From a virus (Duplodnaviria; Caudoviricetes), in the IMG/VR virus record IMGVR_UViG_3300042465_007707, positions 177 to 64,176 of that record: DNA of 64,000 nucleotides. One strand, written 5' to 3'. The notes under the pieces were generated by a model. It saw nothing but the letters and a program-made list of their open reading frames with translations, had not been told where the DNA came from and ran no database searches. Within the stretch, counting starts at the first letter, position 1. Each line of letters opens with the position of its first letter. Positions 28,889 through 64,000 of this stretch are shown here, piece after piece. The translations under genes and the position numbers were made by a program.

Positions 28889-28907
28889 TAATTTAAAACA
28901 AAATAAA

Positions 28908-30025: not shown

Positions 30026-30029
30026 AATT

Positions 30030-30057
30030 AAGGGAGTTTTTTTAACTCCCTTTTTTT
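30030..30057. terminator. terminator between converging genes
   Basis: AAGGGAGTT/AACTCCCTT stem plus T run. Confidence 0.75.
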
Positions 30058-31036
30058 ATAATTCTTTAAAATCTAATCCGTCAAATGAATTGTAAACATC
30101 TTCATCTGTAACATCGCTAAAATCTACTTTACTTACTACTTTTTCTTTAATTGAAATTTTTTTAGAAGTAGTTTCTCCAACTAAATCAAATAAAGGGTTT
30201 ATTGACTCTTGCATAATTATTATTTTTTCTATTGTTTTTGGAGCTATTATTTCTTCAAATTTTTCTTGATTTATTTCCGACATATCAATTCTACTATAAT
30301 AAAACCACATTCTAACAGATTCAAGTGCTTTCATATTATAGTTTATAGCATTTATAGGGCTTGGAATAAATTTCGTATCAATGCCTTCAATTGCAAGTTG
30401 ATTTTGCATAGGATCAACTCTAGGTCTATTAAAATCAACTGAAACTACTCCTGTAGCTAACTTTGTTGTTTTCTTCAACCGCTGCATAGCTTGAACCTGA
30501 GTATTAGCATACACATTAACCGTATTAATTATATACGGTTGAGATTGAAGTTCATTAAGCAACTCCGAATAAGATATATTTGTTCCTGTTGATACAACTA
30601 CTGTTGTTCCTGATATAGCTATCCATGGATTTCCAGCAGGATAAGATACATTAGGCGTTAAAGACGAAAATATAGTTGGAACAAATGTTGGATTTATAAT
30701 CCTAATTATTAAAGTATAATTTGGAGAAATTCCATTTGGAGCATAAGAAAAAAAAGCGTATCCTAAACCTGTGAATAAAAACGCATTAAGGTCAGCTATT
30801 AACAAGTCAATTGTAGCTAATAAAGGAGAGGTGAAATAATTATTAGGAACGCCCCCTAAAGTGTAGTCTAATTTAAATTGATTAACTAAGGTAAAAGGAA
30901 AATTAATTCGATAATAAGTCGTTGTGTTGCTCGAAGAACTACCACTTAATCCGCCCGAAAATAAATTTATCTCACTATCGGCATTGGCAATGTTAGTTAA
31001 TTCTAATGATATTAATTCGCTTTCTGGATTCTTCAT
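30056..31036 (-). CDS. capsid-protein paralog with insertion (candidate penton/minor capsid protein)
   Basis: ISYSELLNELQSQPY and RPRVDPMQNQ align with ITYAEFLQDIKSSPF and NPRLDPMQNQ of 27120..27782; start moved to MKNPES (promoter at 31042-31049). Confidence 0.6.
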   Translation of the reverse strand: MKNPESELISLELTNIANADSEINLFSGGLSGSSSSNTTTYYRINFPFTLVNQFKLDYTLGGVPNNYFTSPLLATIDLLIADLNAFLFTGLGYAFFSYAPNGISPNYTLIIRIINPTFVPTIFSSLTPNVSYPAGNPWIAISGTTVVVSTGTNISYSELLNELQSQPYIINTVNVYANTQVQAMQRLKKTTKLATGVVSVDFNRPRVDPMQNQLAIEGIDTKFIPSPINAINYNMKALESVRMWFYYSRIDMSEINQEKFEEIIAPKTIEKIIIMQESINPLFDLVGETTSKKISIKEKVVSKVDFSDVTDEDVYNSFDGLDFKEL

Positions 31037-39367: not shown

Positions 39368-41523
39368 AGGTATTTTATTGCTTTTTTAAGACTTTCTATA
39401 AGTTTATCGGGCTTGTCAGTATATTTACCTGCCTTTTCTAAAATGTCTATCCTTTTTTGTAGTTTTTCTTTTTCTGAACTAATTTCCAAAGGTAACACAT
39501 TTTTATCAAATTTTTCTTTTATGTTAATTGATTTAATTACGGATTCGTCTGTTTCTTTAACGAAAATAGTATCGAATATCTCGTCTGGAGTTAAATTATT
39601 TCCAAATAAACCTGATCCGCTATTTTCGTCCACACCCTTATTATATTTTAACAAAGCATTTTTAAAGGAGTTAGCTTTTTGATTTAAAAACCAATTTATT
39701 ATAATTGCCTTTTCAGTTTTTAAGTCCTCATCGTCCTCAAATATACTTTGTTCTGTAACGTATTGCTTAACCGACTTATAGTTGTTTAAAACCATTTGAT
39801 TTTGAATAAGCATAGCTTTGTTAAGATCCTCTATTAAACTACCTTCCTTAAATGATTTATTTTTAATTAAAGGTATAATAGCATTAACAACATTTTTAGT
39901 TACCGACTTGATACCTTCATTTTGGCTTATTTCAATAGCATCTGAATTTAAAACAAGACTTACCAAAATAGTTTCGTAAAAAACCTTTCCATTTTCAGTT
40001 AGAGAAGTATCAGTAAACAGATTTGATATTTCATTTTCTGTTATTATTCCACATTCTAAAATTGTTTTTTTAAACCTATTTACGGCATTTCTATCATTGT
40101 ATAGTTCACTAACTATATCTTGTTCTGAAATAATTGAAATTAAAGCATTTCTACACCCTTCATTATCTTTTATTTGTTGAGATAGTCTAATACCTAAATC
40201 TATTTGTCTTTCAGACTTTGCTGTAGATTTATTATACCTATTTAGTTCTGAAGTTACATAGGAGTTAAAATCAAGATCAAACCTAACTAAAACTGGTTGT
40301 TTAAATTTAGCATAAACTTGCTCCATATTAATTCCATACCCACCATATTTTAATTCATTATATAGTGTTTTAACGTATGAATCATAATTTTGTTTATAGT
40401 TTTTTGTTGCTAACTTTAAACTCATTACCCTATTATTACCACTTACTACAATACCATCTATTGTAATTATAGGAGTTCCATTAGCTGTAGGGCTTGTAGT
40501 TATTATAATTTCTGGAGTTAATTTTTCTGCTACCGAAATAACTTTAGCTTGTGCGTTTTTATCACCAGAATAATTCCTATCGTTCACATTCCTTCCTTTA
40601 TCATCAGTAGGGTAATTTTCAGAATTACCAAAAGTTTGTTCGTTATGAGATGCTATTATATTTTCTAATTCAACAACAGCAAAAATAGATTTGTTCTTTT
40701 TATTATCAGGAAAAACAAGCTCTCTTTCTCTACCTAAAACTATATTCGTTTCTAAAAAGTTTTTTCTATATCCTATTTTAAAAAATCCTTCGTTTTTTAA
40801 TTTCGATATGTTTATTTCAGTTAAAAGATCAATGTTTGAAACGTTATTTTCTTCTATTGGTTCTGTTGGTTTAAAATCTAATTTTGATTCAATATCTTTT
40901 ATTTCTGGTATTTTTTCTTCGTCAAAAACAAAAGTTGTTAAAGGTTTTGCTTGGTATCTATCTTCTTTATAGTCTATATTATTTTTAAGCCAAGATTCTT
41001 TTGAATTTAATTTAACAGCATAATATAACTCTTTGAAATTAGTAACAGCACCTATTTTTGTATCTGTTTTTCCTTTGTATAAATTCTTATTTTTCCAATT
41101 ATCTTCGTTTATGACACCATTTAATATTTTAAAATAATCAATGTTATCTCTACCTATTATTCCGTCAAAAGAAAAATTATTACTTTTTAATTCTTTTTTT
41201 TCATTATAATAAACCCATAAATCAAAAAATGATTGTTGGTTTTTGCTATATTCACATTTTTGCAGTTCAGATGCAATTTTAGATATTAAATCTTCTAAAC
41301 TTTTTTCTTTTGTTGAACCAGCATATCTTACATAAGTTTCTATATTACAACCGAAATTATCAATTTTCCACTTTATAAATTCCTCACCCATTAAATCGGG
41401 CGTTTTTATTCTCGAATTATAAGAACCTTTGTCATAGCCAGAGGTCATTCTATTATAGCTTACGCCAAATTTATTTATTAAAATTTCGGCTTCTTTTTTC
41501 CAATAATCGTAATCTTTATACAT
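39364..41523 (-). CDS. DdrB-like ParB-domain protein
   Basis: AVVELENIIASH, NDRNY, GTPII..DGIVVSGNNR, PVLVR motifs. Confidence 0.7.
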   Translation of the reverse strand: MYKDYDYWKKEAEILINKFGVSYNRMTSGYDKGSYNSRIKTPDLMGEEFIKWKIDNFGCNIETYVRYAGSTKEKSLEDLISKIASELQKCEYSKNQQSFFDLWVYYNEKKELKSNNFSFDGIIGRDNIDYFKILNGVINEDNWKNKNLYKGKTDTKIGAVTNFKELYYAVKLNSKESWLKNNIDYKEDRYQAKPLTTFVFDEEKIPEIKDIESKLDFKPTEPIEENNVSNIDLLTEINISKLKNEGFFKIGYRKNFLETNIVLGRERELVFPDNKKNKSIFAVVELENIIASHNEQTFGNSENYPTDDKGRNVNDRNYSGDKNAQAKVISVAEKLTPEIIITTSPTANGTPIITIDGIVVSGNNRVMSLKLATKNYKQNYDSYVKTLYNELKYGGYGINMEQVYAKFKQPVLVRFDLDFNSYVTSELNRYNKSTAKSERQIDLGIRLSQQIKDNEGCRNALISIISEQDIVSELYNDRNAVNRFKKTILECGIITENEISNLFTDTSLTENGKVFYETILVSLVLNSDAIEISQNEGIKSVTKNVVNAIIPLIKNKSFKEGSLIEDLNKAMLIQNQMVLNNYKSVKQYVTEQSIFEDDEDLKTEKAIIINWFLNQKANSFKNALLKYNKGVDENSGSGLFGNNLTPDEIFDTIFVKETDESVIKSINIKEKFDKNVLPLEISSEKEKLQKRIDILEKAGKYTDKPDKLIESLKKAIKYL

Positions 41524-41525
41524 TA

Positions 41526-41744
41526 TTAATCAATATTATTAACTGAATAAAGTCTTTCAACTTCTACTATTGCTTCCGAAATATTGATTTTCCTTGACAA
41601 AATCGTTTCAGCTATTGTTTGTAATAAAGCATTTCTCAATTCAATATTAGAGTAGTTGTAACAAACTACAGGAGTAACAGATGAATCGCAAAATTCTAAC
41701 TCTGTTTGAATCTGAATGTAAAGTTTTTCTAGTAAATTTTCCAT
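41526..41744 (-). CDS. hypothetical protein
   Basis: Small ORF tightly packed in the Dar-like operon. Confidence 0.65.
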   Translation of the reverse strand: MENLLEKLYIQIQTELEFCDSSVTPVVCYNYSNIELRNALLQTIAETILSRKINISEAIVEVERLYSVNNID

Positions 41745-41747
41745 TTT

Positions 41748-42980
41748 TTATCTTTTTTTAAATACAACAATTTCAGACGATACGCCAGTTCTTTCAAATA
41801 TATTAATAGGTAATCTGTAGGCATCTATTAAATCAGCTTTTTCAAATATAATTTCTTTAACCTTTGATAATGGCGAATCTAAAAATAATGATCCACCATT
41901 ATATTGTTCAGCACCTACAATGTATATTAAAAGTCCACCTTGAACTAATAAATCTAATCCCCTTGTAATAAAATACTCAGTAAAGTTACCTGCTTTAGTA
42001 AAAGAATCCTCTCCCATAGCTATATATTTAGAATCTAGTTTACCATAAGGCGGATTTCCTATAACTAACGAATATTTATCTAAATTTTCAGTTTTGTTTT
42101 TAATTGTCATATTGCCTTTTAAGAAGTTTTGCTCAAAATATTTTAGTTCTACTTTAGCGTTTGGATATAGTATTTCACAAATTTTAACTGAGTATTCATT
42201 GATTTCATTTGCTACCAACTTAACGTCTTTAGGCGCATATTTTAAAAAAGCACCTATACCAACTGAAGGCTCAAAAACAGAATTGTCTGCTATCGTTCCA
42301 TATCCATATTTATAAGCCAAAGCCCACATTTTTTTTACAACTGCATCAGGAGTATAAAATTCATACATTAACCCTTTCATTCGTTCTATTCCTATTTCAC
42401 CAAACTTTTCAAGTCCACCATATCCAGAATAATAAGATATAAACTCTAGTTCATCATTAGAATAGTTGTCGCTATCTCCTTTTTGTTCTAAAAGCCTTTC
42501 GATTGCTTTATTTATTTCATACGGATTTTTATAGCTTTCAATATCAGTTTTAATTTCTGGTATTAATTCTTCTTCAATATCTTCTTCTTCATCAATATCT
42601 TCACCAATTATTTTAGATAATTTTTTTGGATCAAAATAAAAATCTAATTCTGTATAATTTTTAAGTTCCTCAATATCTATATAACCTAATTCAGCATCTT
42701 CCATATCTCCATTTAGAATAGTGAATCCAAACGCTTGTAATTGTTCTTCCTCAATATCTTTCTCTAATATGTACCAATCACTAGACGAACTGAAGTAATG
42801 TAAATAAGCTATTTTTTGTAATTTCGGTATTCCGTCCGTTTCGTATGTTTTCGGCATAGTAGTAATAGTTGTGTATAAATCATCTATTACTTCATTATAG
42901 CTATCTAAATTGCTTTTAACTACTTCATATTGCCCTTTTCCGAAAAACGGCTTTACAACCTTTAATTTATCTATTTCCAT
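41748..42980 (-). CDS. N6-adenine DNA methyltransferase (DarB-type) with N-terminal DUF2958-like domain
   Basis: YSGYGGL, EFYTP, FEPSVGIGAF (motif I), IGNPPY (motif IV); N-terminal DWYILE..AFG..ELGYIDIEEL. Confidence 0.85.
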   Translation of the reverse strand: MEIDKLKVVKPFFGKGQYEVVKSNLDSYNEVIDDLYTTITTMPKTYETDGIPKLQKIAYLHYFSSSSDWYILEKDIEEEQLQAFGFTILNGDMEDAELGYIDIEELKNYTELDFYFDPKKLSKIIGEDIDEEEDIEEELIPEIKTDIESYKNPYEINKAIERLLEQKGDSDNYSNDELEFISYYSGYGGLEKFGEIGIERMKGLMYEFYTPDAVVKKMWALAYKYGYGTIADNSVFEPSVGIGAFLKYAPKDVKLVANEINEYSVKICEILYPNAKVELKYFEQNFLKGNMTIKNKTENLDKYSLVIGNPPYGKLDSKYIAMGEDSFTKAGNFTEYFITRGLDLLVQGGLLIYIVGAEQYNGGSLFLDSPLSKVKEIIFEKADLIDAYRLPINIFERTGVSSEIVVFKKR

Positions 42981-47586: not shown

Positions 47587-48486
47587 TTATTTTTTTATTT
47601 GTTTTGAATCAGGATTACCATAAAAATCTCTCATATACGTTGCAATTATGTGTTTTACAGCTACTGATCTGTCTTTATGAACTAGATTACCAGTATGAAT
47701 ATCACGCTTTTTAACTTCTTTTTCAATGATTGAATAATTATCCGTTAAATAGTCCTCAACGGCTTTTTGAAATTCAGCACGAGAAAAATTTCCTTTAACT
47801 TTTTTCATGTCTTTATCAACGAATAAAAAGAAACGTTCGTCACCACCTCTATATTTGTTTTCAACTAATTTTTCAGCTAAATGCAAGTGAGTAACATCTG
47901 TTCCGAATTTATTTTCGTGTTTTTTTACAGTATCTTCAGTTTTATGAATCCTTAACCAATTACAATTAGCCCACAACTTAGGGTGCGCCATTTTTCCAAC
48001 TGACTGAAAGTGCAAAATAATATCACAACTTTTATGTCTTTGAGTACAAATAGCTCCAATTAAATCACTTGGTAATGAATCTGAAAGGAACTTAGTAATA
48101 TCCTCAATAAGTAATAAACCATTTTTAAAGTTCTCCAGAATAACACCTAAAGCATCAGCAGTTTCTTTTAAAGTCATTTGACCACCACCTTCTTTTAAAA
48201 TAGTTACCCTTCTAGCTTCTACTATACCATTGTGACACCATTTACCTATATCCGATAAACGGATAGCTCTAATATGTGCAAAGTTTGGGTTTTGATCCGA
48301 CTGAACATTTCCAAATTCATTATTTACATCTAAAATAAGAACCTTTCTAGGCTTTGCTCCTATACTTGTATTTCCTCTTAAAGTTGGTTGCATCATAGCG
48401 AGAGTAGAGTAGGATTTACCCACTCCCTTCATTCCTATTGCAATTCCTAATTGTGCTTCCCTATATTTAATTTCTGCCATAATCAA
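47587..48486 (-). CDS. FtsK/HerA-superfamily genome packaging ATPase (P9/A32-like)
   Basis: Walker A GMKGVGKS, VLILDVNNEF, Walker B LLLIED, QRH arginine finger, then IILHFQ sensor. Confidence 0.7.
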   Translation of the reverse strand: MIMAEIKYREAQLGIAIGMKGVGKSYSTLAMMQPTLRGNTSIGAKPRKVLILDVNNEFGNVQSDQNPNFAHIRAIRLSDIGKWCHNGIVEARRVTILKEGGGQMTLKETADALGVILENFKNGLLLIEDITKFLSDSLPSDLIGAICTQRHKSCDIILHFQSVGKMAHPKLWANCNWLRIHKTEDTVKKHENKFGTDVTHLHLAEKLVENKYRGGDERFFLFVDKDMKKVKGNFSRAEFQKAVEDYLTDNYSIIEKEVKKRDIHTGNLVHKDRSVAVKHIIATYMRDFYGNPDSKQIKK

Positions 48487-49469
48487 TCCTCCATCATTTG
48501 TGCTTCAATATCTTCAACTGACATTTTAGCTGTTGCTACTTTCATTTCTACTACATTATTTTCTTCTTTTGGTTTCGACTCAATTGAATCAGGAGTATAT
48601 GTTTGAACAGGCGGTTGAATAACTATTTCAGCTCTATTGTTAGCTGTTGCTGTTGCAAAATGTTTTAACATTTGATTTCCTTGTTTTTTCATTCCGATAA
48701 TAACTACCATTTTCATAGCTAAATCTTTTCCAAACATTCCCAATAAATACTGTTCATCGGTAACACCCCATCCTTTTTTCTGAAATACACGAATCATAGC
48801 AGGCTTAACTTTTTCACCAAATTCAGGATCATAAGTTAAAGCTTCAGTTACTTGCTGGTTGTGTGTTTGAGCATATTCAACAGCATTAACATCTGAACCG
48901 TCCTCGGAAATTGGAACTCTTAACTCGGAATCAATTTCACCATTTATAATTTTTTCGTAAATTTTAGCTTCATCAATCTTAGCAACTTTCGCCCCTAATT
49001 CATGAATCATAGCGTACCCTTCAAGAACAGAATTAACCAATTGCGTAGCTGCCATTTTTTTATCCTTGTTATCTAAATCAGACATTGCAGGATTAGTAAC
49101 ATTATCAAATGCACTTGGTTCTTTTGGTTGTTCTACTTCAGGAGCTTCCTCTTCCTTAAAATCTTCAAACGTAAGGTTTTGATCTCCAAAATCAGGTTCT
49201 TCTATATCTCCAATTTCTGAAATTACTTCAGTTTTATTATAAATACGTTCTATTACAGGTTCATTAATAGGGCTATATTCAAAACTTGGCACTTCAAAAT
49301 CATCTACTTTTTCACTCATTATCGGTTCTATTTTTGGTTCAACTATATTTTCTTTAATTTCTTCTACTTCTACCTTTTCAATTGTTGGTACTTCTCTTTT
49401 TTTTACAACTCTTTTAGCGATTAAGTTACCCTCTTTAGGTTTTCTGCCTCTTGTCTTTATTTCTGTCAT
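48483..49469 (-). CDS. acidic protein coupled to packaging ATPase (possible packaging accessory)
   Basis: Stop overlaps ATPase start; weakly hydrophobic segment near C-terminus. Confidence 0.6.
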   Translation of the reverse strand: MTEIKTRGRKPKEGNLIAKRVVKKREVPTIEKVEVEEIKENIVEPKIEPIMSEKVDDFEVPSFEYSPINEPVIERIYNKTEVISEIGDIEEPDFGDQNLTFEDFKEEEAPEVEQPKEPSAFDNVTNPAMSDLDNKDKKMAATQLVNSVLEGYAMIHELGAKVAKIDEAKIYEKIINGEIDSELRVPISEDGSDVNAVEYAQTHNQQVTEALTYDPEFGEKVKPAMIRVFQKKGWGVTDEQYLLGMFGKDLAMKMVVIIGMKKQGNQMLKHFATATANNRAEIVIQPPVQTYTPDSIESKPKEENNVVEMKVATAKMSVEDIEAQMMED

Positions 49470-49909
49470 TCTGATATTTTTTGTTTATAAATTTCTATAT
49501 CTATATCAATTGCTTTATAATAATCCAGATAAATTTTATGTTCTTTTATTTTTTCATTTTTATTCTTAAAATCAGTCAAAGCATGAGATACTATAGAGTG
49601 ATTTTTATTATCGAACAAATTGGAAACTTCTAAATGAGATAAGTTTAAATGTTTTTTTACTAATACCATTACCATGCTCCTGCTGGTGAATAATTCACTA
49701 GAAAGAAACGATTTATTTAAATCGGACGGATTTACATTAAAAGATAAGCAAACTTTATTTTTTATAAAATCAATTACTTTTTGGTCGTAATTATTAATTC
49801 CAGACCTACATAGTTTCTCTAATGCAGTCATCACATTTTTTACGCCAACCTTTTTAAAAGTCTTGTATAATTTAGATACAACTTCTACTATTTCTTTTTC
49901 TTCTGACAT
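49466..49909 (-). CDS. DnaA C-terminal-like HTH protein
   Basis: VC..F.V....L...R.M...L....L.LS..EV..LF..KNHS.V.HA pattern; TAAATTTG at 49931-49938. Confidence 0.65.
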   Translation of the reverse strand: MSEEKEIVEVVSKLYKTFKKVGVKNVMTALEKLCRSGINNYDQKVIDFIKNKVCLSFNVNPSDLNKSFLSSELFTSRSMVMVLVKKHLNLSHLEVSNLFDNKNHSIVSHALTDFKNKNEKIKEHKIYLDYYKAIDIDIEIYKQKISE

Positions 49910-49960: not shown

Positions 49961-50380
49961 CTAGATTTCAAGTAAAAAAATAATATAACCTTCACTATTA
50001 GTCCATAGTTTTGAAGCATGAAGAAAACATATCGTAGAATCATCCGTTAAAAGAGTTCCTGATTGAGTTAAGGCATCCTTCATTCCTTTCGTGAGATTAT
50101 CTAGGTCTGGCTTTTGAATGTGAATTTTTCCTTCTATTCGGGCTTTTTTACCTCCTTTTACCGTAATAGGGTATGGTATTCCAAATGTTACATTTAGAGT
50201 AGTGTAATCTTTAGGATTAACTTTCAATTGTTTTAATATCAAACAAAGTTCATCTTTGTACTGTTGGTATTCAGGTGGGTAATATGTGCAATTTATACCT
50301 TTACCATTTTTGTAAATAGTTTTAACCCTTGGTCTTGGCGTAGGTTTCGGCTTAATCTTTATTAAAATCTGTTTATTCAT
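49961..50380 (-). CDS. rusA: RusA family Holliday junction resolvase
   Basis: KPKPTPRPR, KPDLDNLTKGMKDAL, DDSTI, K.W motifs. Confidence 0.85.
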   Translation of the reverse strand: MNKQILIKIKPKPTPRPRVKTIYKNGKGINCTYYPPEYQQYKDELCLILKQLKVNPKDYTTLNVTFGIPYPITVKGGKKARIEGKIHIQKPDLDNLTKGMKDALTQSGTLLTDDSTICFLHASKLWTNSEGYIIFLLEI

Positions 50381-50836: not shown

Positions 50837-51562
50837 TTAAAAAGGGGTTTTATCAAAATTGATTGTTAAATTAGGTTCAGCAACTGTAACCAATTTACTT
50901 GTAGATTCAGTTACTTTTTGTTTAAACTCTATAGCGTTTGAATTGCTATCTGATAAATGAATTAAGACTATATTGTTAGTTTGTGTTAAATCGTTTGCTT
51001 GTAATAGTTTTATGCAATTCTGAACCGATAGGTGACTATTAATTACCCTAGAAGGTAGAAAACCATCACTACTACTAACTAGATTTTCACAATAATTTGC
51101 TTCGATAATCCAATTTGCAATTCCATTGAAAGAATATTTACTATAAACTAAATCCGTTAAAAACACAATCTTTCCAGATTCAAAATGGTTTATCAAAAAA
51201 CCAAACGTATCTATTGTTGGATCGTGACGAACTAAAAATGGTATTACTGAAAAACTACCTACATTGAATTGTTTATTCGGCTCTACTATCTTTAAATTAC
51301 TCGTTTCACCGCCAAATTTCTCAACTACCGATTTATTGCTATAAACTTTAATTCCAGAACTTGTAAAGTCATTTATATATTTAGAATGATCCATGTGTAA
51401 ATGTGAAGACAAAGCACCAACAACTCCAGTTAAATCAAAATTAAGGGCTTCTTTTACTTTTGAAAACTTCTCGCCACATTCTAAAATTAGAATCTCTCCT
51501 GATGAAGATTTTAATAAATAGCAATTTCCTGAGCTGCCTGAATTAATTACTGTTAGATTCAT
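50837..51562 (-). CDS. MBL-fold metallo-hydrolase (probable exonuclease of recombination module)
   Basis: SGSSGNCY, SHLHMDH, V.HD, TD, EANY, SHLS, LIHLS..N. Confidence 0.9.
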   Translation of the reverse strand: MNLTVINSGSSGNCYLLKSSSGEILILECGEKFSKVKEALNFDLTGVVGALSSHLHMDHSKYINDFTSSGIKVYSNKSVVEKFGGETSNLKIVEPNKQFNVGSFSVIPFLVRHDPTIDTFGFLINHFESGKIVFLTDLVYSKYSFNGIANWIIEANYCENLVSSSDGFLPSRVINSHLSVQNCIKLLQANDLTQTNNIVLIHLSDSNSNAIEFKQKVTESTSKLVTVAEPNLTINFDKTPF

Positions 51563-53349: not shown

Positions 53350-54234
53350 TTAAAATCCTGCATCTGGTTTAATTGCGCTTACTGTTGGTTCTTCGAATAA
53401 ATCTTTAGCCGTTTCTTTTTTAGCTTCTACTTTTGGAGTTTCAACTTCAACTACTTCATCAAAATCAATTACTTCTGTATTTGCGAACTCTTCGATTTCA
53501 TCGTTTACCACTTCTTCAGTTGTTGGTGGTGTTTTTTCATCGTACAATCCACCATCATCACTTGAACCGATTACAATTTTTAAAGCTCTATTGATTACTG
53601 ACTTTTTCGCCATTTCATCAGAGAAGTTTTGGTGAGCAGGTGAATTACCTTTTGCTTTTCCTTGATTCCATGCCGACTTAATTTGCTCCATGTTCATTAT
53701 CTCTACACTCGTGCTATCGTCATTGTAAATAACAATTGCATAAGCTCCTTTAATTTTTGATAAATTAATGTTTTCTAAAGATGGTTTATGTTTTAAGATT
53801 TTCAACCTTCCTGTGTTTACATCAATTTCATAATCAAAATCGTCACCATCAAAAATACAATTAGCTCTAACTTCTTTTACATTACCAACTCTTTTAGCTA
53901 CAGCAATTGCCCCTAAGTAACTTCTTGATAATTGTAATTTGTTACCGTAAGCGATAAAGTAACATTGTTTTTTAACAGGCGAAAGCCCCTGAACAACCAT
54001 ATCTAGCAAACAGTTTGCAATTGATACTTTTGTACAAGCTTCTAAAACAGGTTTTTTATTCAAATCAACTGTTTCCTGCAAAATTAACCAAGCCGATTTC
54101 AAGGCATTTTCTGGACTGTATGAAGAAGGTAAAGTTAATTCTCCATTTTGTTGAAAAGTATTGATTTTAGCCAATACTTGATTTGTAATAACTTTGTCCT
54201 CGACTAAAGCTACTTGTTCTGTCGTTTTGCTCAT
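53350..54234 (-). CDS. recT: RecT-family single-strand annealing protein
   Basis: SIANCLLDMVVQGLSP.KKQCYFIAYG, RSYLG, GAYA, EMAKKSVINRALK; acidic tail. Confidence 0.9.
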   Translation of the reverse strand: MSKTTEQVALVEDKVITNQVLAKINTFQQNGELTLPSSYSPENALKSAWLILQETVDLNKKPVLEACTKVSIANCLLDMVVQGLSPVKKQCYFIAYGNKLQLSRSYLGAIAVAKRVGNVKEVRANCIFDGDDFDYEIDVNTGRLKILKHKPSLENINLSKIKGAYAIVIYNDDSTSVEIMNMEQIKSAWNQGKAKGNSPAHQNFSDEMAKKSVINRALKIVIGSSDDGGLYDEKTPPTTEEVVNDEIEEFANTEVIDFDEVVEVETPKVEAKKETAKDLFEEPTVSAIKPDAGF

Positions 54235-54623: not shown

Positions 54624-56585
54624 TTACTTTACAGTTAATTTTTCGCAACCAGAATCAACGATTAAATTGATTATTTGATTATCTGTTTTTATTAGGCTTG
54701 TAATACTTTCTCTACCGTCAATAATTACAGGGCAATTAATCTCGTAAAAATCGCTTAAAACATTTATTACTTCAATTCCTGCGTTAATTTTAGCTGCTGT
54801 ATTTACATCGTTAAAACCAACTCCATTAACTAAACAAGTACAATCTTCTGAAATACCTCCATTAACTAAATTTTGGAACATTTTAAACTTAACAAATTTG
54901 AATTTTGCGTTTACCTTTTCCTCAATCATTTTCATTTTTGAGTTTTCGAATTGATCTATAATCATTTCAGTTTTTTCAAGACTTGCTATTTCCTGAGATA
55001 AAGTTTTTTGTTGTTGGTTTAGTTCTTCAATCCTAGCCGTTCCTTTTTCGATTTGAACCTTATCATGTAGTTTTAACTTTAAAATGTCTATACTAGCTTG
55101 TACTTCTGTTTTTCTCAACTTTAAAGCTGAATTATCAATTGCCGTAACTTCTGGAATAACTATTTCCGAAATTTCGGATTGCAACTCCGTTACTTTTATC
55201 GAAACTGTTTTTTCTGAAGCAAATTGAACCTCGAAAGCTTTGATTTTATCTTCAATAATTTTTAGTTCTGCTTCTTTTGTTTCGATAATTTCATCTAAAC
55301 TAATTTTTGCTTTTTTAAATACTTCAATATCGAATTGGTAATTTTCAATTTGAGTTTTATTTTTTTGACCTCTACCTCTAATTTCTGAAATAACTTCTTC
55401 CTGCTGTGCTTTGAATTTTAATAAAGCATTTGCTTTAATTTCTTCAATTTTGTCTGTATCATATTCACGTTGACAACTATTGCAGGAGAAGGCTGTTGAA
55501 TCGAATGTAAAATCCTTTGCATTTTCATCTGTAAACTTTTTTCTTAATTCGTCATTGGCTGTTTCGTGACGTTTTATTTTACCTTCTAACTCCTGAATTA
55601 ATTCAACCTGCTGTTTTGAATTATTTTTATTTAACTGGATTATATGTTTCACGTTACTGGAATCGGAAACCAAAATATTGTAACCCTTTTTTGATTCAGC
55701 AATTTCTTCATTTATTACTGCCTGAAGCTCCTGATCCTTTTGGAATTTAATTTGTTTTACTTTGTTTACTTCAGCAAACTTCGAATCCATTTGTTTTGTA
55801 GCATCCTCAATTTGAGTATCAATATCTTTTATTTCGTTTGTATAATTTTCAATTGTTTTTTCTACTAAATCCCAATTTTTAGAATCTGGTAAACTTCTTG
55901 TCGCTTCGTCAATTCTTGAAGGAATTAAATCCAACTCATCTTTTATTTTTTTACGTTTTACGGAGTATTCTCGCTTGTAATCAGCTAAAGTCTTATCTGA
56001 AGAAAGTAGGGCTTGTATTTCAGTTTGTTTATCCTTAGAAAAATTACTGTAAACCTCTGAATCTAATATTTCACCAACTATTTTTGATAAAACAACTCTT
56101 CTATCATTCCATTTCATTACAGAATTAAAGTATAATGGATTTGATAGTAATTTTTGAAACTCTTCTGATATTATTCCATCGACTTTCATTTTATATTCTG
56201 AAAGTGAACAAGGCACTCCGTTAAAAAAGAAGTCTGTACTATGACCTGTTAACTCTTGTTGCTCTGCACCCTTCTTCTTAGTCCATTTCTCGCTGTAAAC
56301 ACGTTTCAAAGTTAATTCTGAATCATCTACCATAAACACGCCTTCTACTGAATGGTTTAGGTTATGAATTGGATCATTATTTGTGTCTAGTGTTTTTATT
56401 CCAAAATCGGTTTGGTTCTGGCTATTTTTACCAAATAACAACCACGAATAAGCATCTGCTACAGTTGTTTTGCCTGAACCATTTTTACCATGGATATTAG
56501 TTTCCTGAGAATCGAAATCTAAAGTATAATGTTTGATCCCTTTAAAATTGGTTAATACCAACTTATTTAATACTATTTTTTTCAT
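54624..56585 (-). CDS. SMC/Rad50-like ATPase
   Basis: NFKGI, GKNGSGKTT, long coiled coil with CNSC hook, PVIIDGRES. Confidence 0.85.
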   Translation of the reverse strand: MKKIVLNKLVLTNFKGIKHYTLDFDSQETNIHGKNGSGKTTVADAYSWLLFGKNSQNQTDFGIKTLDTNNDPIHNLNHSVEGVFMVDDSELTLKRVYSEKWTKKKGAEQQELTGHSTDFFFNGVPCSLSEYKMKVDGIISEEFQKLLSNPLYFNSVMKWNDRRVVLSKIVGEILDSEVYSNFSKDKQTEIQALLSSDKTLADYKREYSVKRKKIKDELDLIPSRIDEATRSLPDSKNWDLVEKTIENYTNEIKDIDTQIEDATKQMDSKFAEVNKVKQIKFQKDQELQAVINEEIAESKKGYNILVSDSSNVKHIIQLNKNNSKQQVELIQELEGKIKRHETANDELRKKFTDENAKDFTFDSTAFSCNSCQREYDTDKIEEIKANALLKFKAQQEEVISEIRGRGQKNKTQIENYQFDIEVFKKAKISLDEIIETKEAELKIIEDKIKAFEVQFASEKTVSIKVTELQSEISEIVIPEVTAIDNSALKLRKTEVQASIDILKLKLHDKVQIEKGTARIEELNQQQKTLSQEIASLEKTEMIIDQFENSKMKMIEEKVNAKFKFVKFKMFQNLVNGGISEDCTCLVNGVGFNDVNTAAKINAGIEVINVLSDFYEINCPVIIDGRESITSLIKTDNQIINLIVDSGCEKLTVK

Positions 56586-60988: not shown

Positions 60989-61039
60989 GTGTCAAATATA
61001 GTAAATATATTGACACGACAACATTATTTTACAAAATAA
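60989..61039 (-). promoter_or_regulatory. promoter with inverted repeat and palindromic operator
   Basis: TATATTTG 60993-61000 within GTGTCAA..TTGACAC inverted repeat; TTATTTTACAAAATAA 61024-61039. Confidence 0.6.
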
Positions 61040-61325
61040 TAAAAAAAAGGTTAAGTTATTGATTTTAAGGTTGTGTGTTGATTACTAGTAGGTAATAAAT
61101 AATTCTTTTATAAAATAATAAAGGGTAAGACTAATCTTACCCCATTTTAACTGATTTTGTCGGATCGTACAATACGCAAACGACCTTCTAAATATATCGG
61201 TTGTAATTTAGTGTTATTTTCGTAAAATATTGGTTCACTATATAAAAATAATTTTGTTTATGAAGAAAGTTCCTAAAAATTCCTTTTTATTCCTTTTTTT
61301 ACTTATTGTTTACTTTTTTTTTGAA

Positions 61326-61369
61326 GATTCGAGGTTGATTCGAGTTTGATTCGAGGTTGATTCGAGTTT
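61326..61369. repeat. 4 x 11-bp tandem repeat, iteron-like
   Basis: GATTCGAGGTT GATTCGAGTTT GATTCGAGGTT GATTCGAGTTT next to an AT-rich non-coding tract. Confidence 0.8.
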
Positions 61370-61482
61370 CAAACCGCACCAAGTTTGTTCCAAAAGTGAC
61401 CAAATTTTTCCCAAACTGCGTTGTAAGTAATTGATAATCAATAAAATTTTGTTCCAAAAAAAACCACATTTTTCCCAAATGG

Positions 61483-61992
61483 TTAAAATTTAACAACCAT
61501 TTTTTCAATTTCATCTAAGTTTAAAACCCCTTCTTTATGTAGTTTGAAATACTCCTTTAAATTTTCAGTTCTTAAAACGTCTGCTTTTTCATTATTTTCA
61601 ATGATAGTCCTTAACGTTTCAGCTTCAGATTCAAGTTCTTTTATATATTCCTGCTCTTCCCATCCAATTATCGGACAATCGAAGTCGAATACCACCTCAA
61701 AGCGTTCCTCCTTCATGTGAAGTCTTAATCTCATTGGTGGACGTGTTTCCTTTGTAAATTCATACTTTGCAATTTCAAGAAATCTATGTAGGTAAATTTT
61801 AATTTGTTGGCTTTCTTCATCTGTGACTATTGGAAAAGTTTCTCCTAGAAGCGTGAATGATTTAAAACCGTATGTATTGAGCATTTCAACTATGTATTCA
61901 TAAGCTCCAAAAGGATTTACAGAGCAACTCATAACTTTCTTATTGTTTATGTTACCATGTAAATTAAACAACCCTAAACCCCTTCTTTTCAT
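61483..61992 (-). CDS. hypothetical protein
   Basis: Third gene of the right-end operon. Confidence 0.7.
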   Translation of the reverse strand: MKRRGLGLFNLHGNINNKKVMSCSVNPFGAYEYIVEMLNTYGFKSFTLLGETFPIVTDEESQQIKIYLHRFLEIAKYEFTKETRPPMRLRLHMKEERFEVVFDFDCPIIGWEEQEYIKELESEAETLRTIIENNEKADVLRTENLKEYFKLHKEGVLNLDEIEKMVVKF

Positions 61993-61993
61993 A

Positions 61994-62905
61994 TTATTTC
62001 TCTTTTGTTATTTTTGATCCATACTGCATTAATTTATAGGCTTCAGCGAGTGAAACTTTACTTTTTGCTTTTTTAGAACCGTCTGGATTCCAACTAAAAA
62101 GTTTTGATGATTTTCCCAATTCAGAATAAACTAAAAAAGTTCTATTTAGGAACTCAACTTTCGAAACGTCCTCTGGTTTACATTCGTAACTACAGGATTC
62201 CAAAAATTCCTTTACTTTTTTAATGTTTTCATCTGTTTTCTTAAAGTAAATACCGTCAACCCAATAGAATATAAAGTCCTCACCTAAAGACTTCATTAAA
62301 TCCTGCATAACGTCCGAAACTCGTTTACAGATAGCAAACCAAAGGTTTTCTGTTTCGTAGCTTCTAATCGTTTCAACGTGACGATAAATCGAACCGTCAT
62401 AAGTATATACCTCTTTTCTTTTTGCTAATGATCCCAAGGAAGCCAAGCGTGTAATTTTGTCTTTTTTCAGTCCTTCAAGGTAGATTTCTTTTGAAATAAC
62501 ACCCATCATCAAAGCTGTTTGCCAATAAGCTCCATTAATATCTAAGCAGCAAACATTCTCAAATACATCACCCTCTTTGATAGTTCCCTTTATCGAAAAA
62601 TATTCAATATCCATAAGTCTATAGACGTTTTCCCTATATCTCATAGCCACATAGTTATCAATCGAATATTTCTTTACCTTCTTAACGAAATTCATATCCT
62701 CTGGACGAAAAAATTTACTCATTGACCTACAATTCCATTCGTCACTATACAATTCAACTGAACTCCCAGAATTTACAATCGTAAATGGTAGTTTCAACCT
62801 ATGAAGGTACTCAGCCTTAGAATCCAAACTATTTTTGTCAACCTGAAATATTTTACGTTTCACGTTCTTCAAGGCACTATTATTTGCTTTTTTCAATTCG
62901 CTCAT
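61994..62905 (-). CDS. minimal family-B-like DNA polymerase/nucleotidyltransferase (palm only)
   Basis: Motif A-like CLDINGAYW, motif B-like RLASLGSL, motif C-like FYWVDGIYF; no exonuclease motifs seen. Confidence 0.6.
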   Translation of the reverse strand: MSELKKANNSALKNVKRKIFQVDKNSLDSKAEYLHRLKLPFTIVNSGSSVELYSDEWNCRSMSKFFRPEDMNFVKKVKKYSIDNYVAMRYRENVYRLMDIEYFSIKGTIKEGDVFENVCCLDINGAYWQTALMMGVISKEIYLEGLKKDKITRLASLGSLAKRKEVYTYDGSIYRHVETIRSYETENLWFAICKRVSDVMQDLMKSLGEDFIFYWVDGIYFKKTDENIKKVKEFLESCSYECKPEDVSKVEFLNRTFLVYSELGKSSKLFSWNPDGSKKAKSKVSLAEAYKLMQYGSKITKEK

Positions 62906-63669
62906 CTTGTCGTTATTCTTATTTCTTTTAAAACCCTATTAAACTCAATTACAACCTGATAGTTACCCCCTTTTTCTCGTTCATCAGTCATTTCCTCAAC
63001 GCGTTCCTTAATATCGTTAATCAACTCAAAGTTATTGGTAGGAATAACATATTTTAAACCGTCCAAATAGATAACATTGTAAATTTTTGAATCCAGAATA
63101 TCTGTAATGTTACTATTCAAATCCCAAATACCAACATTCGTACTGAAAACTTCTCCTGAAGGAACATGGGGAGTAATATCCAAATCCGTTGGCTTGAATC
63201 CATGAATATTCAAGTCCATCAAAGATTTCAAATCACTCAATTCAGCATCCAACTTAGCTAATTCCTTACACTTAGCCTTCTTTATCGAAGCTTCCTTCTT
63301 ACGTTCCTTTGCCGAAAGTTTTTTACCTTCCAACTCCTGATCCCTTTTCTCAATTGACTTACACAAATACTTAATCCTAGAACTCAGTTTTCGCTTCTTA
63401 GACTTCAATTTAGCGTACTTCTTACCGCACTTGAATAGTTTTACCTTGTACCTGTCAATCTTAACGTCAATCCTTCCTAAACGCCTTGAAGCAATTTCCA
63501 ATCTCTTTTCACTCAATTCACCAGATGTAATCGAAACATTCAATCGTTTACGCTCAACATACAACTTTGACCTTTCTTTGTTGTACTTAACGCATAACTC
63601 CTGCTGTGTAGAACGCTGTCGTTTACCTTCGTTATTTTGCTCCTTAGAAACTTTACCCCCCTTTCTCAT
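62902..63669 (-). CDS. basic coiled-coil protein coupled to the polymerase gene (candidate terminal protein)
   Basis: Lys/Arg-rich N-terminal two-thirds, acidic C-terminal domain; ATGA overlap with polymerase gene. Confidence 0.6.
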   Translation of the reverse strand: MRKGGKVSKEQNNEGKRQRSTQQELCVKYNKERSKLYVERKRLNVSITSGELSEKRLEIASRRLGRIDVKIDRYKVKLFKCGKKYAKLKSKKRKLSSRIKYLCKSIEKRDQELEGKKLSAKERKKEASIKKAKCKELAKLDAELSDLKSLMDLNIHGFKPTDLDITPHVPSGEVFSTNVGIWDLNSNITDILDSKIYNVIYLDGLKYVIPTNNFELINDIKERVEEMTDEREKGGNYQVVIEFNRVLKEIRITTR

Positions 63670-64000
63670 ATCAATATACCAATTATTGTTTTTTAATAGC
63701 TTAAATCGAAAGTTTTGAAGTTAAATAGTCAAATACTCCTTTCAATTACTAAAGATAAGCATTTTTTAAACACTAAACACATTGATATACAACTTTTTAA
63801 CTACAAAAATAGACGAAAATGAACGAAAGTTGAAGGTATGGATCAATTGTTTAAACAAATCTGTTACTATGTAGGTTATATTCCAGAGATGCACTTCGTG
63901 TTTTAATTAGTAGTATAATTTTTTTATCAAAAAATCACACAAGTTTTTTTTAGAAGTGAACTTCTTTTTTTTTGGTTGTTGGGTGGTAGCTCCGTAGGGG

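What the first reader, a model, noticed from the sequence alone, without database searches (positions are those of the whole stretch)
61483..63669. Minimal polymerase plus basic protein: possible terminal-protein end-patching system
Seen: a 303-aa protein with palm motifs DINGAYW / RLASLGSL / YWVDGIYF and no proofreading domain, translationally coupled to a very basic 255-aa protein, in an operon at the window end that looks somewhat more GC-rich. The genome separately has initiator-like, RecT and RusA genes and no full replicative polymerase in view. Known: Streptomyces linear replicons replicate from an internal origin and patch ends with Tap (polymerase activity) and Tpg (terminal protein); PRD1-type ATPases package protein-capped linear DNA. 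Inference: host-replisome replication plus a dedicated mini-polymerase and terminal protein for the ends, which I do not know to be described for such phages.
Basis: inference. Interest (0 to 1): 0.8.

Follow-up and report, generated by a model that had tools for sequence, protein, structure and literature searches.

The report
Minimal end-of-genome polymerase with partner protein
An uncultured lake phage carries, as the first genes at one physical end of its linear DNA, a stripped-down 303-residue relative of family B DNA polymerases and a basic partner protein predicted to clamp onto it, a pair that most likely starts or finishes DNA copying at the genome ends and belongs to a large, unnamed virus protein family.

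Summary

New here:
- The family is large: 1,724 representatives at 50% identity, all about 160-415 aa, viral, unnamed.
- In 29 of 29 contigs of at least 10 kb the gene lies at most 5.9 kb from a contig end and is transcribed inward. In the window's clade it is the second gene from the end.
- 9 of 16 such ends carry a GC-rich or tandem-repeat cap.
- The two proteins are predicted to bind (ipSAE 0.86, best control 0.10).
- The partner's C-domain has the strand-helix order of PRD1-type terminal proteins, with Ser/Thr/Tyr beside Gly/Pro in the equivalent loop in 19 of 19.
- The third gene (169 aa) is a paralogue of that domain.
- The layout copies PRD1 (end, terminal protein, polymerase).

Against: no terminal repeat between the contig's two ends, no fold or sequence match to known terminal proteins, and no biochemistry. 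Best reading (0.45): protein-primed synthesis at the genome ends. I found no paper describing it.

The parts
63974..64000 (-). GC-rich terminal cap of the genome's right end (read from the end inward on the minus strand: CCCCTACGGAGCTACCACCCAACAACC, then a run of 9 A)
   Evidence: The first 25 nt are 60% GC against 25% in the rest of the 331-nt leader. A 99%-identical relative (L009) has a related but longer cap, and L002 has (CTAC)x9 at the same place. 9 of 16 related contig ends have such a cap.
63670..63973 (-). AT-rich leader with a promoter-like TAnnTTTG box at 63804-63811
   Evidence: The motif lies at position 190 from the end. The stretch from there to the start codon is nearly identical in L002, while the outer part is not. 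The Bacteroidota -7 box consensus is recalled, not tested.
62902..63669 (-). Basic 255-aa partner or candidate terminal protein. It has four long helices (22-152), a disordered linker (153-173) and a C-terminal strand-helix-strand-strand-helix-strand-strand domain (174-254). The candidate linking loop is K233-G-G-N-Y237-Q.
   Evidence: ORF. pI 9.7. Model pLDDT 82.8. Predicted complex with the polymerase: ipSAE 0.86 against a best control of 0.10. The loop motif is present in 19 of 19 homologues.
61994..62905 (-). 303-aa minimal family-B-type polymerase: palm plus short fingers, no exonuclease site, no thumb recognised. Key residues are D122 and Y127 (motif A-like), K150, R153 and G158 (motif B-like) and D217 (motif C-like, VDG).
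61483..61992 (-). 169-aa protein whose residues 18-103 are a paralogue of the partner's C-terminal domain, followed by an acidic helical tail
   Evidence: hhalign A4 against A6: probability 90.6%, E 1.3e-6, 84 columns. It is conserved directly downstream of the polymerase gene in 7 loci besides the window.
61300..61482 (.). Non-coding repeat block just downstream of the operon. An 11-nt unit GATTCGAG(G/T)TT is repeated in tandem at 61326-61369, and two 35-nt repeats lie at 61381-61415 and 61445-61479.
   Evidence: the repeat finder families D1 and D2. Whether it belongs to the module (origin or operator) is not known.

Best explanation
The first operon at the right physical end of this linear phage genome encodes a dedicated end-replication module. 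The 303-aa protein is an active DNA polymerase reduced to the palm and short fingers of a family B enzyme, with no proofreading. It works as a heterodimer with the basic 255-aa protein encoded just upstream.

The partner's C-terminal alpha/beta domain sits in the polymerase cleft. It offers a hydroxyl residue of the loop between its second helix and fourth strand (Tyr237 here, Thr-Pro in most relatives) as the primer for the first nucleotide. The protein therefore stays attached to the 5' end, as in PRD1, phi29 and adenovirus. Its long basic helical half binds DNA.

Short reiterated, GC-rich terminal sequences would serve sliding-back or jumping-back after initiation. Because the enzyme lacks thumb, TPR-type insertions and exonuclease, I infer that it makes only short stretches at the ends (initiation or patching). 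Bulk synthesis would be done by the host replisome, recruited by the phage's DnaA-like protein, or by recombination-dependent replication (RecT, RusA, SbcC-like).

Shown: fold, conserved catalytic residues, operon structure, end association, predicted binding. Inferred: protein priming, the linking residue, the division of labour with the host.
For: 2. Conservation. D122, Y127, K150, R153, G158 and D217 are invariant in 45 sequences. D-to-Y spacing of 5 equals that of motif A in phi29 (recalled).
3. Family. 1,724 representatives at E<=1e-3 and 1,287 at <=1e-10; the 150 listed are 161-415 aa. Atlas clusters are viral and unnamed; the nearest named ones carry PF03175 (10% of members) or PF00136.
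4. Ends. In 29 of 29 contigs of at least 10 kb (26, 2, plus the window's record) the gene is 46-5,893 nt from a contig end, within the first 36% of the contig, with its 5' end towards that end.
5. Position in the window's clade. The basic gene starts 17-421 nt from the contig end in 16 loci. 9 of the 16 ends have a cap of at least 50% GC over a leader of 17-30% GC. The caps include (CTAC)x9 and (CAG)n.
6. Precedent for terminal repeats. The protein-capped virus SH1 ends in CA(CT)x8 at both ends.
7. Binding. Complex prediction score 0.86, best of 3 controls 0.10. That mark was reached by 58 of 80 solved complexes and 2 of 110 mismatched pairs (counts hold only roughly, as my own alignments were used). 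Runs agree in at least 87% of contacts and partner pLDDT is at least 83. The interface includes polymerase residues 151, 154, 187 and 215-216, next to K150, R153 and D217. It also includes partner residues 236, 238 and 240-242.
8. Partner fold. The C-domain order is b-a-b-b-a-b(-b) behind a helical extension. PMC11161782 describes PRD1/adenovirus terminal proteins as a 4-stranded sheet (optionally 5) plus 2 helices with helical extensions. It places the linking residue in the loop between helix 2 and strand 4, with Gly or Pro nearby and a variable residue type (passages).
9. Candidate linking loop. S, T or Y within 2 residues of G or P occurs in 19 of 19 homologues, against 0.24 of all 11-residue windows of the same proteins.
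10. Synteny. PRD1 has its terminal protein at 233-1012 and its polymerase at 1016-2677 from the left end. Here the partner starts 331 nt from the end and the polymerase follows directly.
11. No canonical polymerase in the record.
12. Context. An earlier follow-up in this scan (e1-6233313) reads the virus as tailless and membrane-containing with an FtsK/HerA-type packaging ATPase. I saw only a weak DUF87/HerA hit at 47587-48486 (E 0.0017) and no terminase. [quoted passage not shown]
13. Precedent for exonuclease-less protein-primed PolB palms: mavirus and polinton-like viruses (PMC11161782).
Against: - No inverted or direct terminal repeat between the two ends of the 64,176-nt record. There is no shared 12-mer. 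The best local alignment scores 25, against a shuffle mean of 23 and maximum of 35. All known protein-primed genomes have such repeats (recalled). The left contig end may be incomplete, but that is an excuse, not evidence.
- No single hydroxyl residue is invariant in the partner. The aligned column holds T 13, S 1, N 3, V 1 and I 1.
- The partner's model found no terminal protein or little-finger domain, and hhalign against the PRD1 terminal protein found nothing.
- The b-a-b-b-a-b order is a very common fold.
- The polymerase has one Asp (VDG) where family B enzymes have DTD. It lacks the N, S and Y of motif B and matches no PolB HMM even weakly.
- In the marine clades the overlapping upstream gene is a different basic protein with no detectable homology (hhalign E 0.42), or an HNH endonuclease. 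There the gene lies 2-6 kb from the contig end, without GC-rich caps.
- The A1 profile finds nothing in SH1.
- An early gene at the first-injected end would show the same end association without any role at the ends.
Confidence: 0.45

Rival explanations
1. A two-subunit minimal DNA polymerase without protein priming. The basic protein supplies in trans the DNA-binding parts that the 303-aa core lacks: a 'little finger' or thumb plus a basic coiled coil. The 169-aa paralogue would be an alternative or regulatory subunit. The enzyme would extend 3' ends in recombination-dependent replication, gap filling or primer synthesis early in infection. Its place at the genome end would reflect only early expression.
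For: There is a strong predicted heterodimer in which the partner wraps the cleft. PMC11161782 derives the PRD1-type terminal protein fold from the DNA-binding little-finger domain of family Y polymerases, so the same fold can simply bind DNA. No hydroxyl residue is invariant. No terminal repeat is present. RecT, RusA and an SbcC-like protein are present. A second paralogous domain protein sits in the operon.
Against: This reading does not explain why the pair is the very first operon behind a capped end in 16 loci. It does not explain the identical order to PRD1. It does not explain the S/T/Y beside G/P in the loop equivalent to the linking loop in 19 of 19.
Confidence: 0.28
2. An early-injected host-takeover or anti-defence enzyme. 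Being on the first DNA to enter the cell, the polymerase pair would make a small nucleic acid product (a decoy, signal or modified primer) that blocks a host defence, with no role in replicating the ends.
For: The gene is always transcribed inward from the end, and in marine clades it sits among small variable genes and HNH endonucleases 2-6 kb from the end. The same genome carries DarB-like antirestriction parts. The family is absent from bacterial genomes: only 2 small MAG contigs were found.
Against: No PADLOC hit at E<=0.01; the only row is a weak one for the 255-aa protein (E 0.014), and no other family hit was found. The gene is strictly conserved over 1,724 diverse clusters with a constant size, which is more like a core replication gene than an accessory one. 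The genome has no other polymerase.
Confidence: 0.12
3. A telomerase-like or terminal-transferase-like enzyme that adds short GC-rich repeats to the 3' ends. This would protect the ends or compensate for end loss, and would explain why the outer 16-32 nt differ between nearly identical phages.
For: The window and L009 (polymerase 99% identical) share the inner ACCCAACAACC-poly(A) but differ in the outer cap, which is longer in L009. L002 has nine perfect CTAC units, L017 has CAG repeats and L004 has GTTG repeats.
Against: No RNA or protein template is evident. Caps occur in only 9 of 16 ends. Repeat units differ between relatives. Repeated sliding-back in protein priming would give the same picture.
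Confidence: 0.07
4. A catalytically dead polymerase-like scaffold, as HSV UL8 is within the helicase-primase complex.
Against: Both metal-binding Asp positions, the steric-gate-like Tyr and the finger Lys/Arg are invariant over 45 sequences at 33-83% identity. That is not expected of a dead enzyme.
Confidence: 0.05

Closest known systems
PRD1 (Tectiviridae) terminal protein P8 plus protein-primed family B polymerase P1
   Same: Same gene order and place: genome end, about 230-330 nt leader, a protein of about 255-259 aa, then the polymerase immediately after, all transcribed inward. Both are read as tailless, membrane-containing phage types with an FtsK/HerA-type packaging ATPase (e1-6233313; weak support). 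The partner's secondary-structure order and loop features fit the published description of the PRD1-type terminal protein fold.
   Different: PRD1's polymerase is 553 aa, with exonuclease, TPR1/TPR2 and thumb (recalled), and matches PF03175. This one is 303 aa, has a single Asp in motif C and matches no HMM. There is no sequence or profile similarity of either protein. PRD1 has 110-bp inverted terminal repeats (recalled), and none is seen here. This genome is 64 kb against 15 kb.
Exonuclease-less protein-primed PolB palms of mavirus-like virophages (TP-vOTU-PALM) and polinton-like viruses (TP-vOTU-PALM-S1H), PMC11161782
   Same: A protein-primed-type family B palm that has lost the exonuclease domain and is predicted to be still active. 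It is associated with a terminal-protein domain of the little-finger-like fold (passages).
   Different: Those are eukaryotic elements in which terminal protein, protease and palm are fused in one chain, often with a helicase. Here the host is bacterial, the parts are separate genes, there is no protease and no helicase is fused. Homology to them was not tested.
Sphaerolipoviridae (SH1, HCIV-1): linear genomes with terminal proteins but no canonical polymerase
   Same: Tailless, membrane-containing, single-jelly-roll type virus (per e1-6233313). The genome is linear and lacks a canonical polymerase. The very ends carry short tandem repeats: SH1 has CA(CT)x8.
   Different: SH1 has 309-bp identical ends (one search shows the first 120 nt identical). 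No homologue of the 303-aa family is detectable in SH1 by profile search. Those hosts are haloarchaea.
Streptomyces Tap/Tpg end patching
   Same: The proposed logic is the same: internal or host-driven bulk replication plus a protein-primed fill-in at the ends (recalled knowledge).
   Different: In Streptomyces the patching polymerases are host enzymes, and Tap is not a family B polymerase (recalled). No sequence comparison was made here.
phi29 DNA polymerase with its terminal protein
   Different: The phi29 enzyme is 575 aa with proofreading and full processivity. Its terminal protein's priming domain is a helical bundle (recalled), not an alpha/beta domain.

Membership tests
Family B DNA polymerase (catalytic core) | Right-hand palm/fingers fold of PolB type | tested here: met
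Family B DNA polymerase (catalytic core) | Motif A: Asp metal ligand followed five residues later by the steric-gate Tyr (DxxSLYP, recalled) | tested here: met
   D122 and Y127 are invariant in 45 sequences, consensus VDIxxAYW.
Family B DNA polymerase (catalytic core) | Motif B: Kx3NSxYG (recalled) | tested here: inconclusive
   K150 and G158 are invariant at the right spacing, but Leu, Ala and Leu replace N, S and Y. R153 is an extra invariant basic residue.
Family B DNA polymerase (catalytic core) | Motif C: YxDTDS with two Asp (recalled) | tested here: not met
   The invariant sequence is W215-V216-D217-G218, with only one Asp in the hairpin.
Family B DNA polymerase (catalytic core) | 3'-5' exonuclease domain with conserved acidic residues | tested here: not met
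   Residues 1-110 hold only S54 and F73 as invariant positions. The whole protein is 303 aa.
Family B DNA polymerase (catalytic core) | Match to Pfam PF00136 or PF03175 | tested here: not met
   No hit for the protein, for the record in six frames, or for any of the 45 members at E<=10.
Protein-primed PolB systems (PRD1, phi29, adenovirus type) | Terminal-protein gene next to the polymerase gene near a genome end | tested here: met
   The layout is identical to PRD1. This holds as gene order only; the partner's identity as a terminal protein is not shown.
Protein-primed PolB systems (PRD1, phi29, adenovirus type) | Linear genome with inverted terminal repeats | tested here: not met
   There is no shared 12-mer between the ends, and the alignment score is at shuffle level. 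Caveat: the left contig end may be incomplete.
Protein-primed PolB systems (PRD1, phi29, adenovirus type) | TPR1 and TPR2 insertions in the polymerase (recalled) | tested here: inconclusive
   Only 28 residues separate D122 and K150, so there is no room for TPR1. A beta-hairpin at 163-181 lies between motif B and motif C, where TPR2 lies in phi29 (plus recall). No residue-level superposition was available.
Protein-primed PolB systems (PRD1, phi29, adenovirus type) | Protein covalently bound to the 5' DNA ends | not testable with these tools
   This needs virion DNA or an in vitro deoxynucleotidylation assay.
PRD1-type terminal protein / little-finger-like fold (PMC11161782) | 4-stranded sheet (optionally 5) with two helices, plus helical extensions in stand-alone forms | tested here: inconclusive
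   The secondary-structure order E174-179, H181-194, E199-202, E205-208, H213-232, E239-244, E249-254 behind four long helices fits. No fold search returned a terminal protein or a little-finger domain: the helical half filled the lists.
PRD1-type terminal protein / little-finger-like fold (PMC11161782) | Ser, Thr or Tyr in the loop between helix 2 and strand 4, with Gly or Pro nearby | tested here: met
   Present in 19 of 19 homologues against a background of 0.24: GGNY in the window, L002 and L056; TP in 13; SP, GYS and GIYY in one each. The sequences are related, so the count is not 19 independent events.
PRD1-type terminal protein / little-finger-like fold (PMC11161782) | Sequence or profile similarity to PRD1 P8 | tested here: not met
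   hhalign probability 0.1%, E 0.46. The paper itself says terminal proteins of different families lack sequence similarity.
Streptomyces Tap/Tpg | Homology to Tap or Tpg | not tested
   No Tap or Tpg sequence was fetched. Pfam, NCBIfam and PHROGs gave no hit of any kind.

The most novel reading that the evidence does not exclude
A previously unrecognised and very widespread protein-primed end-replication system of aquatic bacterial viruses. The smallest known family B polymerase (about 250-340 aa, palm and fingers only, one motif C Asp) would be active only as a heterodimer with a separately encoded little-finger-like terminal protein. It would cap and copy just the genome ends, whose short GC-rich repeats grow and shrink by sliding-back, while the host replisome copies the 64-kb body. 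If so, it offers a template for how 'polymerase-less' protein-capped viruses such as sphaerolipoviruses may replicate, and a natural minimal polymerase/primer pair for biotechnology.
Probability: 0.35. Interest if true: 0.88.

Novelty: new variant of a known kind. Interest (0 to 1): 0.74.

Why it matters
Protein-primed replication is known from a handful of small viruses and plasmids. There it always uses a large, self-sufficient family B polymerase of about 550 aa or more. A stand-alone core of about 300 aa with a separate clamp-like partner, fixed at the physical genome end, would show how far this enzyme can be reduced and how its functions can be split between genes.

The scale is large. 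The family has at least 1,724 clusters at 50% identity and more than 300 metagenome stretches. No name, no Pfam family and no cultured representative were found. A 64-kb tailless phage with no other polymerase raises a direct, testable question of who copies the genome.

[quoted passage not shown] Practically, a minimal polymerase plus primer-protein pair would be of interest for in vitro replication systems.

Tried and rejected
- Family libraries (Pfam, PHROGs, PADLOC, NCBIfam) gave nothing meaningful for the three proteins. A scan of all 45 family members at E<=10 found no weak PolB signal.
- A profile search of PDB sequences gave only chance hits, E>1.
- tblastn of the 303-aa protein and of two distant members (P0200, P0244) against 50,697 phage records found no match. 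The 770-aa protein found none either.
- Genome contigs held only 2 small MAG contigs, so no host could be read from prophages.
- Fold searches with the whole model of the 255-aa protein were filled by generic helical hairpins (VIA) or had no hit at E<=0.001 (Foldseek PDB, BFVD). This says nothing about the C-domain, which I could not fold alone.
- hhalign of A4 against PRD1 P8, A1 against the PRD1 polymerase, A1 against SH1 ORF55, and hmmsearch of A1 against SH1 six-frame ORFs were all negative.
- hhalign of A4 against the marine upstream proteins (A5) was negative.
- Terminal repeats. The k-mer test and local alignment of the two contig ends were negative. The other end of G003 lies in coding sequence, so it gives no information.
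- The first left-end ORF (74 aa) is a mobile small gene found inside many unrelated contigs. One relative of a left-arm gene (L112) ends 209 nt upstream of it with an unrelated leader.
- Exact-pattern scans of IMG/VR with a left-end 41-mer and a right-end 22-mer found nothing.
- Public runs. All holders are lake-water metagenomes kept as Logan contigs. Laid on 61000-64000, the contigs of X1, X3 and X4 stop at 63999, 63913 and 63983, and no loose end is listed beyond 63237. This is compatible with a physical end. It is not decisive, because contigs cannot show molecule ends and depth was low (5-31).
- I considered a hairpin (protelomerase-type) end because L009's cap starts GGGTACCCC. I dropped the idea: it rests on 3-4 nt only, and no protelomerase family appeared in the Pfam scans.
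- I considered contig ends caused by assembly breaks in a circular genome. This is not excluded, but the two ends of G000 share nothing.
- Earlier notes of this scan held no look-alike of the 303-aa protein.


Full report
WHAT IS THERE

The window is bases 177-64176 of a 64,176-nt IMG/VR virus record, classed linear with CheckV completeness 100%. The window's right end is therefore the end of the record. Almost all genes lie on the minus strand, so transcription starts near the right end and runs leftwards.

- 62902-63669(-), 255 aa, pI 9.7.
- 61994-62905(-), 303 aa. Its ATG overlaps the preceding stop (ATGA).
- 61483-61992(-), 169 aa, one base further on.

A 331-nt leader separates the first start codon from the contig end.

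THE 303-AA PROTEIN IS A MINIMAL FAMILY-B-TYPE POLYMERASE CORE

No Pfam, PHROG, PADLOC or NCBIfam family matches it. A word-indexed search found 186 homologues of about 300 aa, all 'hypothetical'.

In an alignment of 45 of them (33-83% identical to the query) the invariant residues form three blocks:
- D122, A126 and Y127 (VDIxxAYW).
- K150, R153, L154, L157 and G158 (KxxRLAxLGSLA).
- W215, V216, D217 and G218 (YWVDGIY).

The AlphaFold model built on this alignment is confident (pLDDT 89.7, pTM 0.81). All 46 rows that Foldseek listed against PDB are family B DNA polymerases or replisome entries containing one (best E 2.5e-5).

The exhaustive VIA search agrees:

From recalled motif definitions, the first block is motif A (metal-binding Asp, with the steric-gate Tyr five residues later, as in phi29). 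The second is a variant of motif B that keeps Lys and Gly but not Asn, Ser and Tyr. The third is a motif C hairpin with a single Asp instead of DTD.

The N-terminal 110 residues hold no conserved acidic residue (only S54 and F73 are invariant), so there is no proofreading site. There is no recognisable thumb, and only 28 residues lie between motif A and motif B.

An exhaustive profile search of 1.84 billion representatives found 1,724 proteins at E<=1e-3 and 1,287 at E<=1e-10. The 150 listed are 161-415 aa long. The ESM Atlas places the protein among unnamed viral clusters, one of 1,311 members. The nearest clusters with any Pfam label carry DNA_pol_B_2 (10% of members) or DNA_pol_B.

No cultured phage in INPHARED encodes it. 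Bacterial genomes hold it only on two small MAG contigs.

THE GENE SITS AT A GENOME END

Loci are returned oriented with the gene on the plus strand, so the distance from the gene to the upstream contig end can be read directly.

Among contigs of at least 10 kb there are 26 of the 80 metagenome loci, 2 IMG/VR loci and the window's own record. In 29 of these 29 the gene lies 46-5,893 nt from a contig end, within the first 36% of the contig, with its 5' end towards that end. Examples are 877 nt in a 71,460-nt contig, 5,298 nt in 76,676 nt and 4,634 nt in 61,310 nt. The contigs are related to each other and some are near-duplicates, so they are not 29 independent events. Even so, no exception was seen.

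In the window's own clade the basic-protein gene is the first gene. It starts 17-421 nt from the contig end in 16 loci. The window and L002 (78% identical polymerase) end within a few bases of each other.

Nine of these 16 ends begin with a cap of about 25 nt at 52-72% GC, on a leader of 17-30% GC. Read from the end inward, the caps are:
- Window: CCCCTACGGAGCTACCACCCAACAACC, then A9.
- L009 (99% identical polymerase): a related but longer cap on the same inner ACCCAACAACC-poly(A).
- L002: (CTAC)x9.
- L017: CAG repeats.
- L004: GTTG repeats.
- L003: CCCA(A/G)C-like repeats.

The other seven ends are AT-rich and mostly have very short leaders, so they probably stop short of the terminus.

In the marine clades the gene lies 2-6 kb from the contig end, and those ends show no cap.

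For comparison, the protein-capped virus SH1 ends in CA(CT)x8 at both ends.

THE BASIC PROTEIN IS A PREDICTED PARTNER WITH TERMINAL-PROTEIN-LIKE FEATURES

An iterative search among the ORFs of the fetched loci found homologues of the 255-aa protein directly upstream of the polymerase gene in the window's clade.

Its model (pLDDT 82.8) has three parts:
- Four long helices (22-152).
- A disordered linker (153-173).
- A C-terminal domain ordered strand-helix-strand-strand-helix-strand-strand (174-254).

The complex test gave ipSAE 0.86 (runs 0.80, 0.86, 0.86) against a best control of 0.10. That mark was reached by 58 of 80 solved complexes and 2 of 110 mismatched pairs. The counts hold only roughly, because my own alignments were used. 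The runs agree in at least 87% of contacts and the partner's pLDDT is at least 83.

The interface is large, 177-187 contacts. On the polymerase side it includes 151, 154, 187 and 215-216, which are the neighbours of K150, R153 and D217. It also includes the 163-181 hairpin and the C-terminal helix. On the partner side it includes helix 4, the linker, most of the C-domain and loop residues 236, 238 and 240-242. The score is the model's confidence, not a measurement.

Passages of PMC11161782 describe the PRD1/adenovirus terminal-protein fold as follows:
- A 4-stranded sheet (sometimes 5) with two helices, related to the little finger of family Y polymerases.
- Helical extensions in stand-alone proteins.
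- The linking residue (PRD1 Tyr190, adenovirus Ser580) lies in the loop between helix 2 and strand 4.
- Gly or Pro lies nearby, and the residue type varies.

The C-domain here has that order of elements. Its equivalent loop holds S, T or Y within two residues of G or P in 19 of 19 homologues: GGNY in the window, TP in 13. The background is 0.24 for all 11-residue windows of the same proteins.

The gene order equals that of PRD1. There the 259-aa terminal protein gene (233-1012) and the polymerase gene (1016-2677) are the first two genes from the left end.

The 169-aa protein is a paralogue of the partner's C-domain (hhalign probability 90.6%, E 1.3e-6, 84 columns). It is conserved directly downstream of the polymerase gene in 7 other loci.

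WHAT SPEAKS AGAINST PROTEIN PRIMING

- The two ends of the record share no inverted or direct repeat. There is no common 12-mer. The best local alignment scores 25, against a shuffle mean of 23 and maximum of 35.
- No hydroxyl residue is invariant at one alignment column (T 13, S 1, N 3, V 1, I 1).
- Fold searches with the whole partner model returned only generic helical matches or nothing. I could not fold the C-domain alone, and its topology is a common one.
- Profile comparisons with the PRD1 terminal protein, the PRD1 polymerase and SH1 proteins were negative.
- In marine clades the overlapping upstream gene is a different basic protein of about 190-215 aa with no detectable homology, or an HNH endonuclease separated by 40-100 nt.
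- End association alone would also follow if this were simply the first-injected early operon.

CONTEXT IN THE GENOME

Pfam finds the following:
- A DnaA C-terminal HTH protein (49466-49909), RusA (49961-50380), a metallo-beta-lactamase-fold protein (50837-51562) and RecT (53350-54234).
- An SbcC/SMC-like ATPase at 54624-56585.
- DarB-like methylase, ParB-like and SNF2-helicase/zeta-toxin proteins at 34325-42980.
- Lysis genes.

No family A or B polymerase and no Terminase_6N is found in six frames. No polymerase, primase or replicative helicase family appears among the 76 ORFs scanned.

An earlier follow-up of this scan (e1-6233313) reads the virus as a large tailless, membrane-containing, jelly-roll phage with an FtsK/HerA-type packaging ATPase, closest to Halopanivirales. 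I saw only a weak HerA hit at 47587-48486 (E 0.0017) and did not test the capsid claim.

The ICTV profile of Sphaerolipoviridae says these viruses have linear genomes with inverted repeats of about 300 bp and terminal proteins. [quoted passage not shown]

READING

The best-supported explanation (0.45) is a terminal replication module. A minimal polymerase, in a heterodimer with a little-finger-like primer protein, would start or complete DNA synthesis at the genome ends. The short reiterated caps would reflect sliding-back.

It rests on the enzyme's small size and on the DnaA-like, RecT and RusA genes, but nothing here tests it.

The main rival (0.28) is the same heterodimer acting as an ordinary, non-protein-primed small polymerase whose partner only binds DNA. 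Lesser rivals are an early anti-defence enzyme (0.12), a repeat-adding telomerase-like activity (0.07) and a dead scaffold (0.05).

NOVELTY

Terminal-protein/PolB modules are known. Exonuclease-less protein-primed palms are known from mavirus and polinton-like viruses (PMC11161782).

I found no description of a stand-alone core of about 300 aa with a separately encoded partner at the end of bacterial virus genomes, in six literature searches or in any family library. I file it as a new variant of a known kind: it works like a protein-primed PolB system. It fails several membership features of canonical family B and protein-primed polymerases (single motif C Asp, no exonuclease, no HMM match, no terminal repeat seen).

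Noticed in passing
window 61326-61479: Non-coding block just downstream of the operon. It holds tandem 11-nt units GATTCGAG(G/T)TT at 61326-61369 and two 35-nt direct repeats at 61381-61415 and 61445-61479. It could be an iteron-type origin or an operator. The 71-aa ORF called over it (61299-61514) is probably spurious.
   Followed up: no
window 62906-62913 and L002 (alignment A2, last columns): ACGACAAG lies immediately before the polymerase ATG and is identical in L002. It may be a translation-initiation or coupling signal.
   Followed up: partly
window 71-295 (+): The first left-end ORF (74 aa) has homologues at 51-60% identity inside 23 IMG/VR contigs, mostly far from contig ends. It looks like a small mobile or widely shared phage gene, not an end-specific one.
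   Followed up: partly
L024-L044 loci (upstream of the polymerase gene): In one marine clade the gene upstream of the mini-polymerase is an HNH endonuclease of about 165-200 aa with an N-terminal Cys-rich motif. In another clade it is a 90-100-aa HNH. Homing endonucleases seem to target this neighbourhood repeatedly.
   Followed up: no
L062, L068-L074, L079, L082, L086 (upstream ORFs): A second family of basic proteins of 190-216 aa (MAIxNKxYA..., GQHD, VKDSSGKxYRFxGxG) overlaps the start of the polymerase gene in a marine clade. It has invariant Y8, Y134, Y176 and Y203 and no detectable homology to the window's partner. It may be an analogous partner.
   Followed up: partly
L113 (SH1, AY950802) 27880-30477 (-): In SH1 the second gene from the right end, transcribed inward, is the 865-aa ORF 55 of unknown function. 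It shows no similarity to the mini-polymerase profile, but its position invites a structural look.
   Followed up: partly
window 34325-39367 (-): The 1,680-aa protein joins a SNF2/ResIII helicase (about 535-1115) to a C-terminal zeta-toxin/AAA_33 kinase-like domain (1461-1634). It is part of the split DarB-like module noted earlier in this scan (e1-6233320).
   Followed up: no
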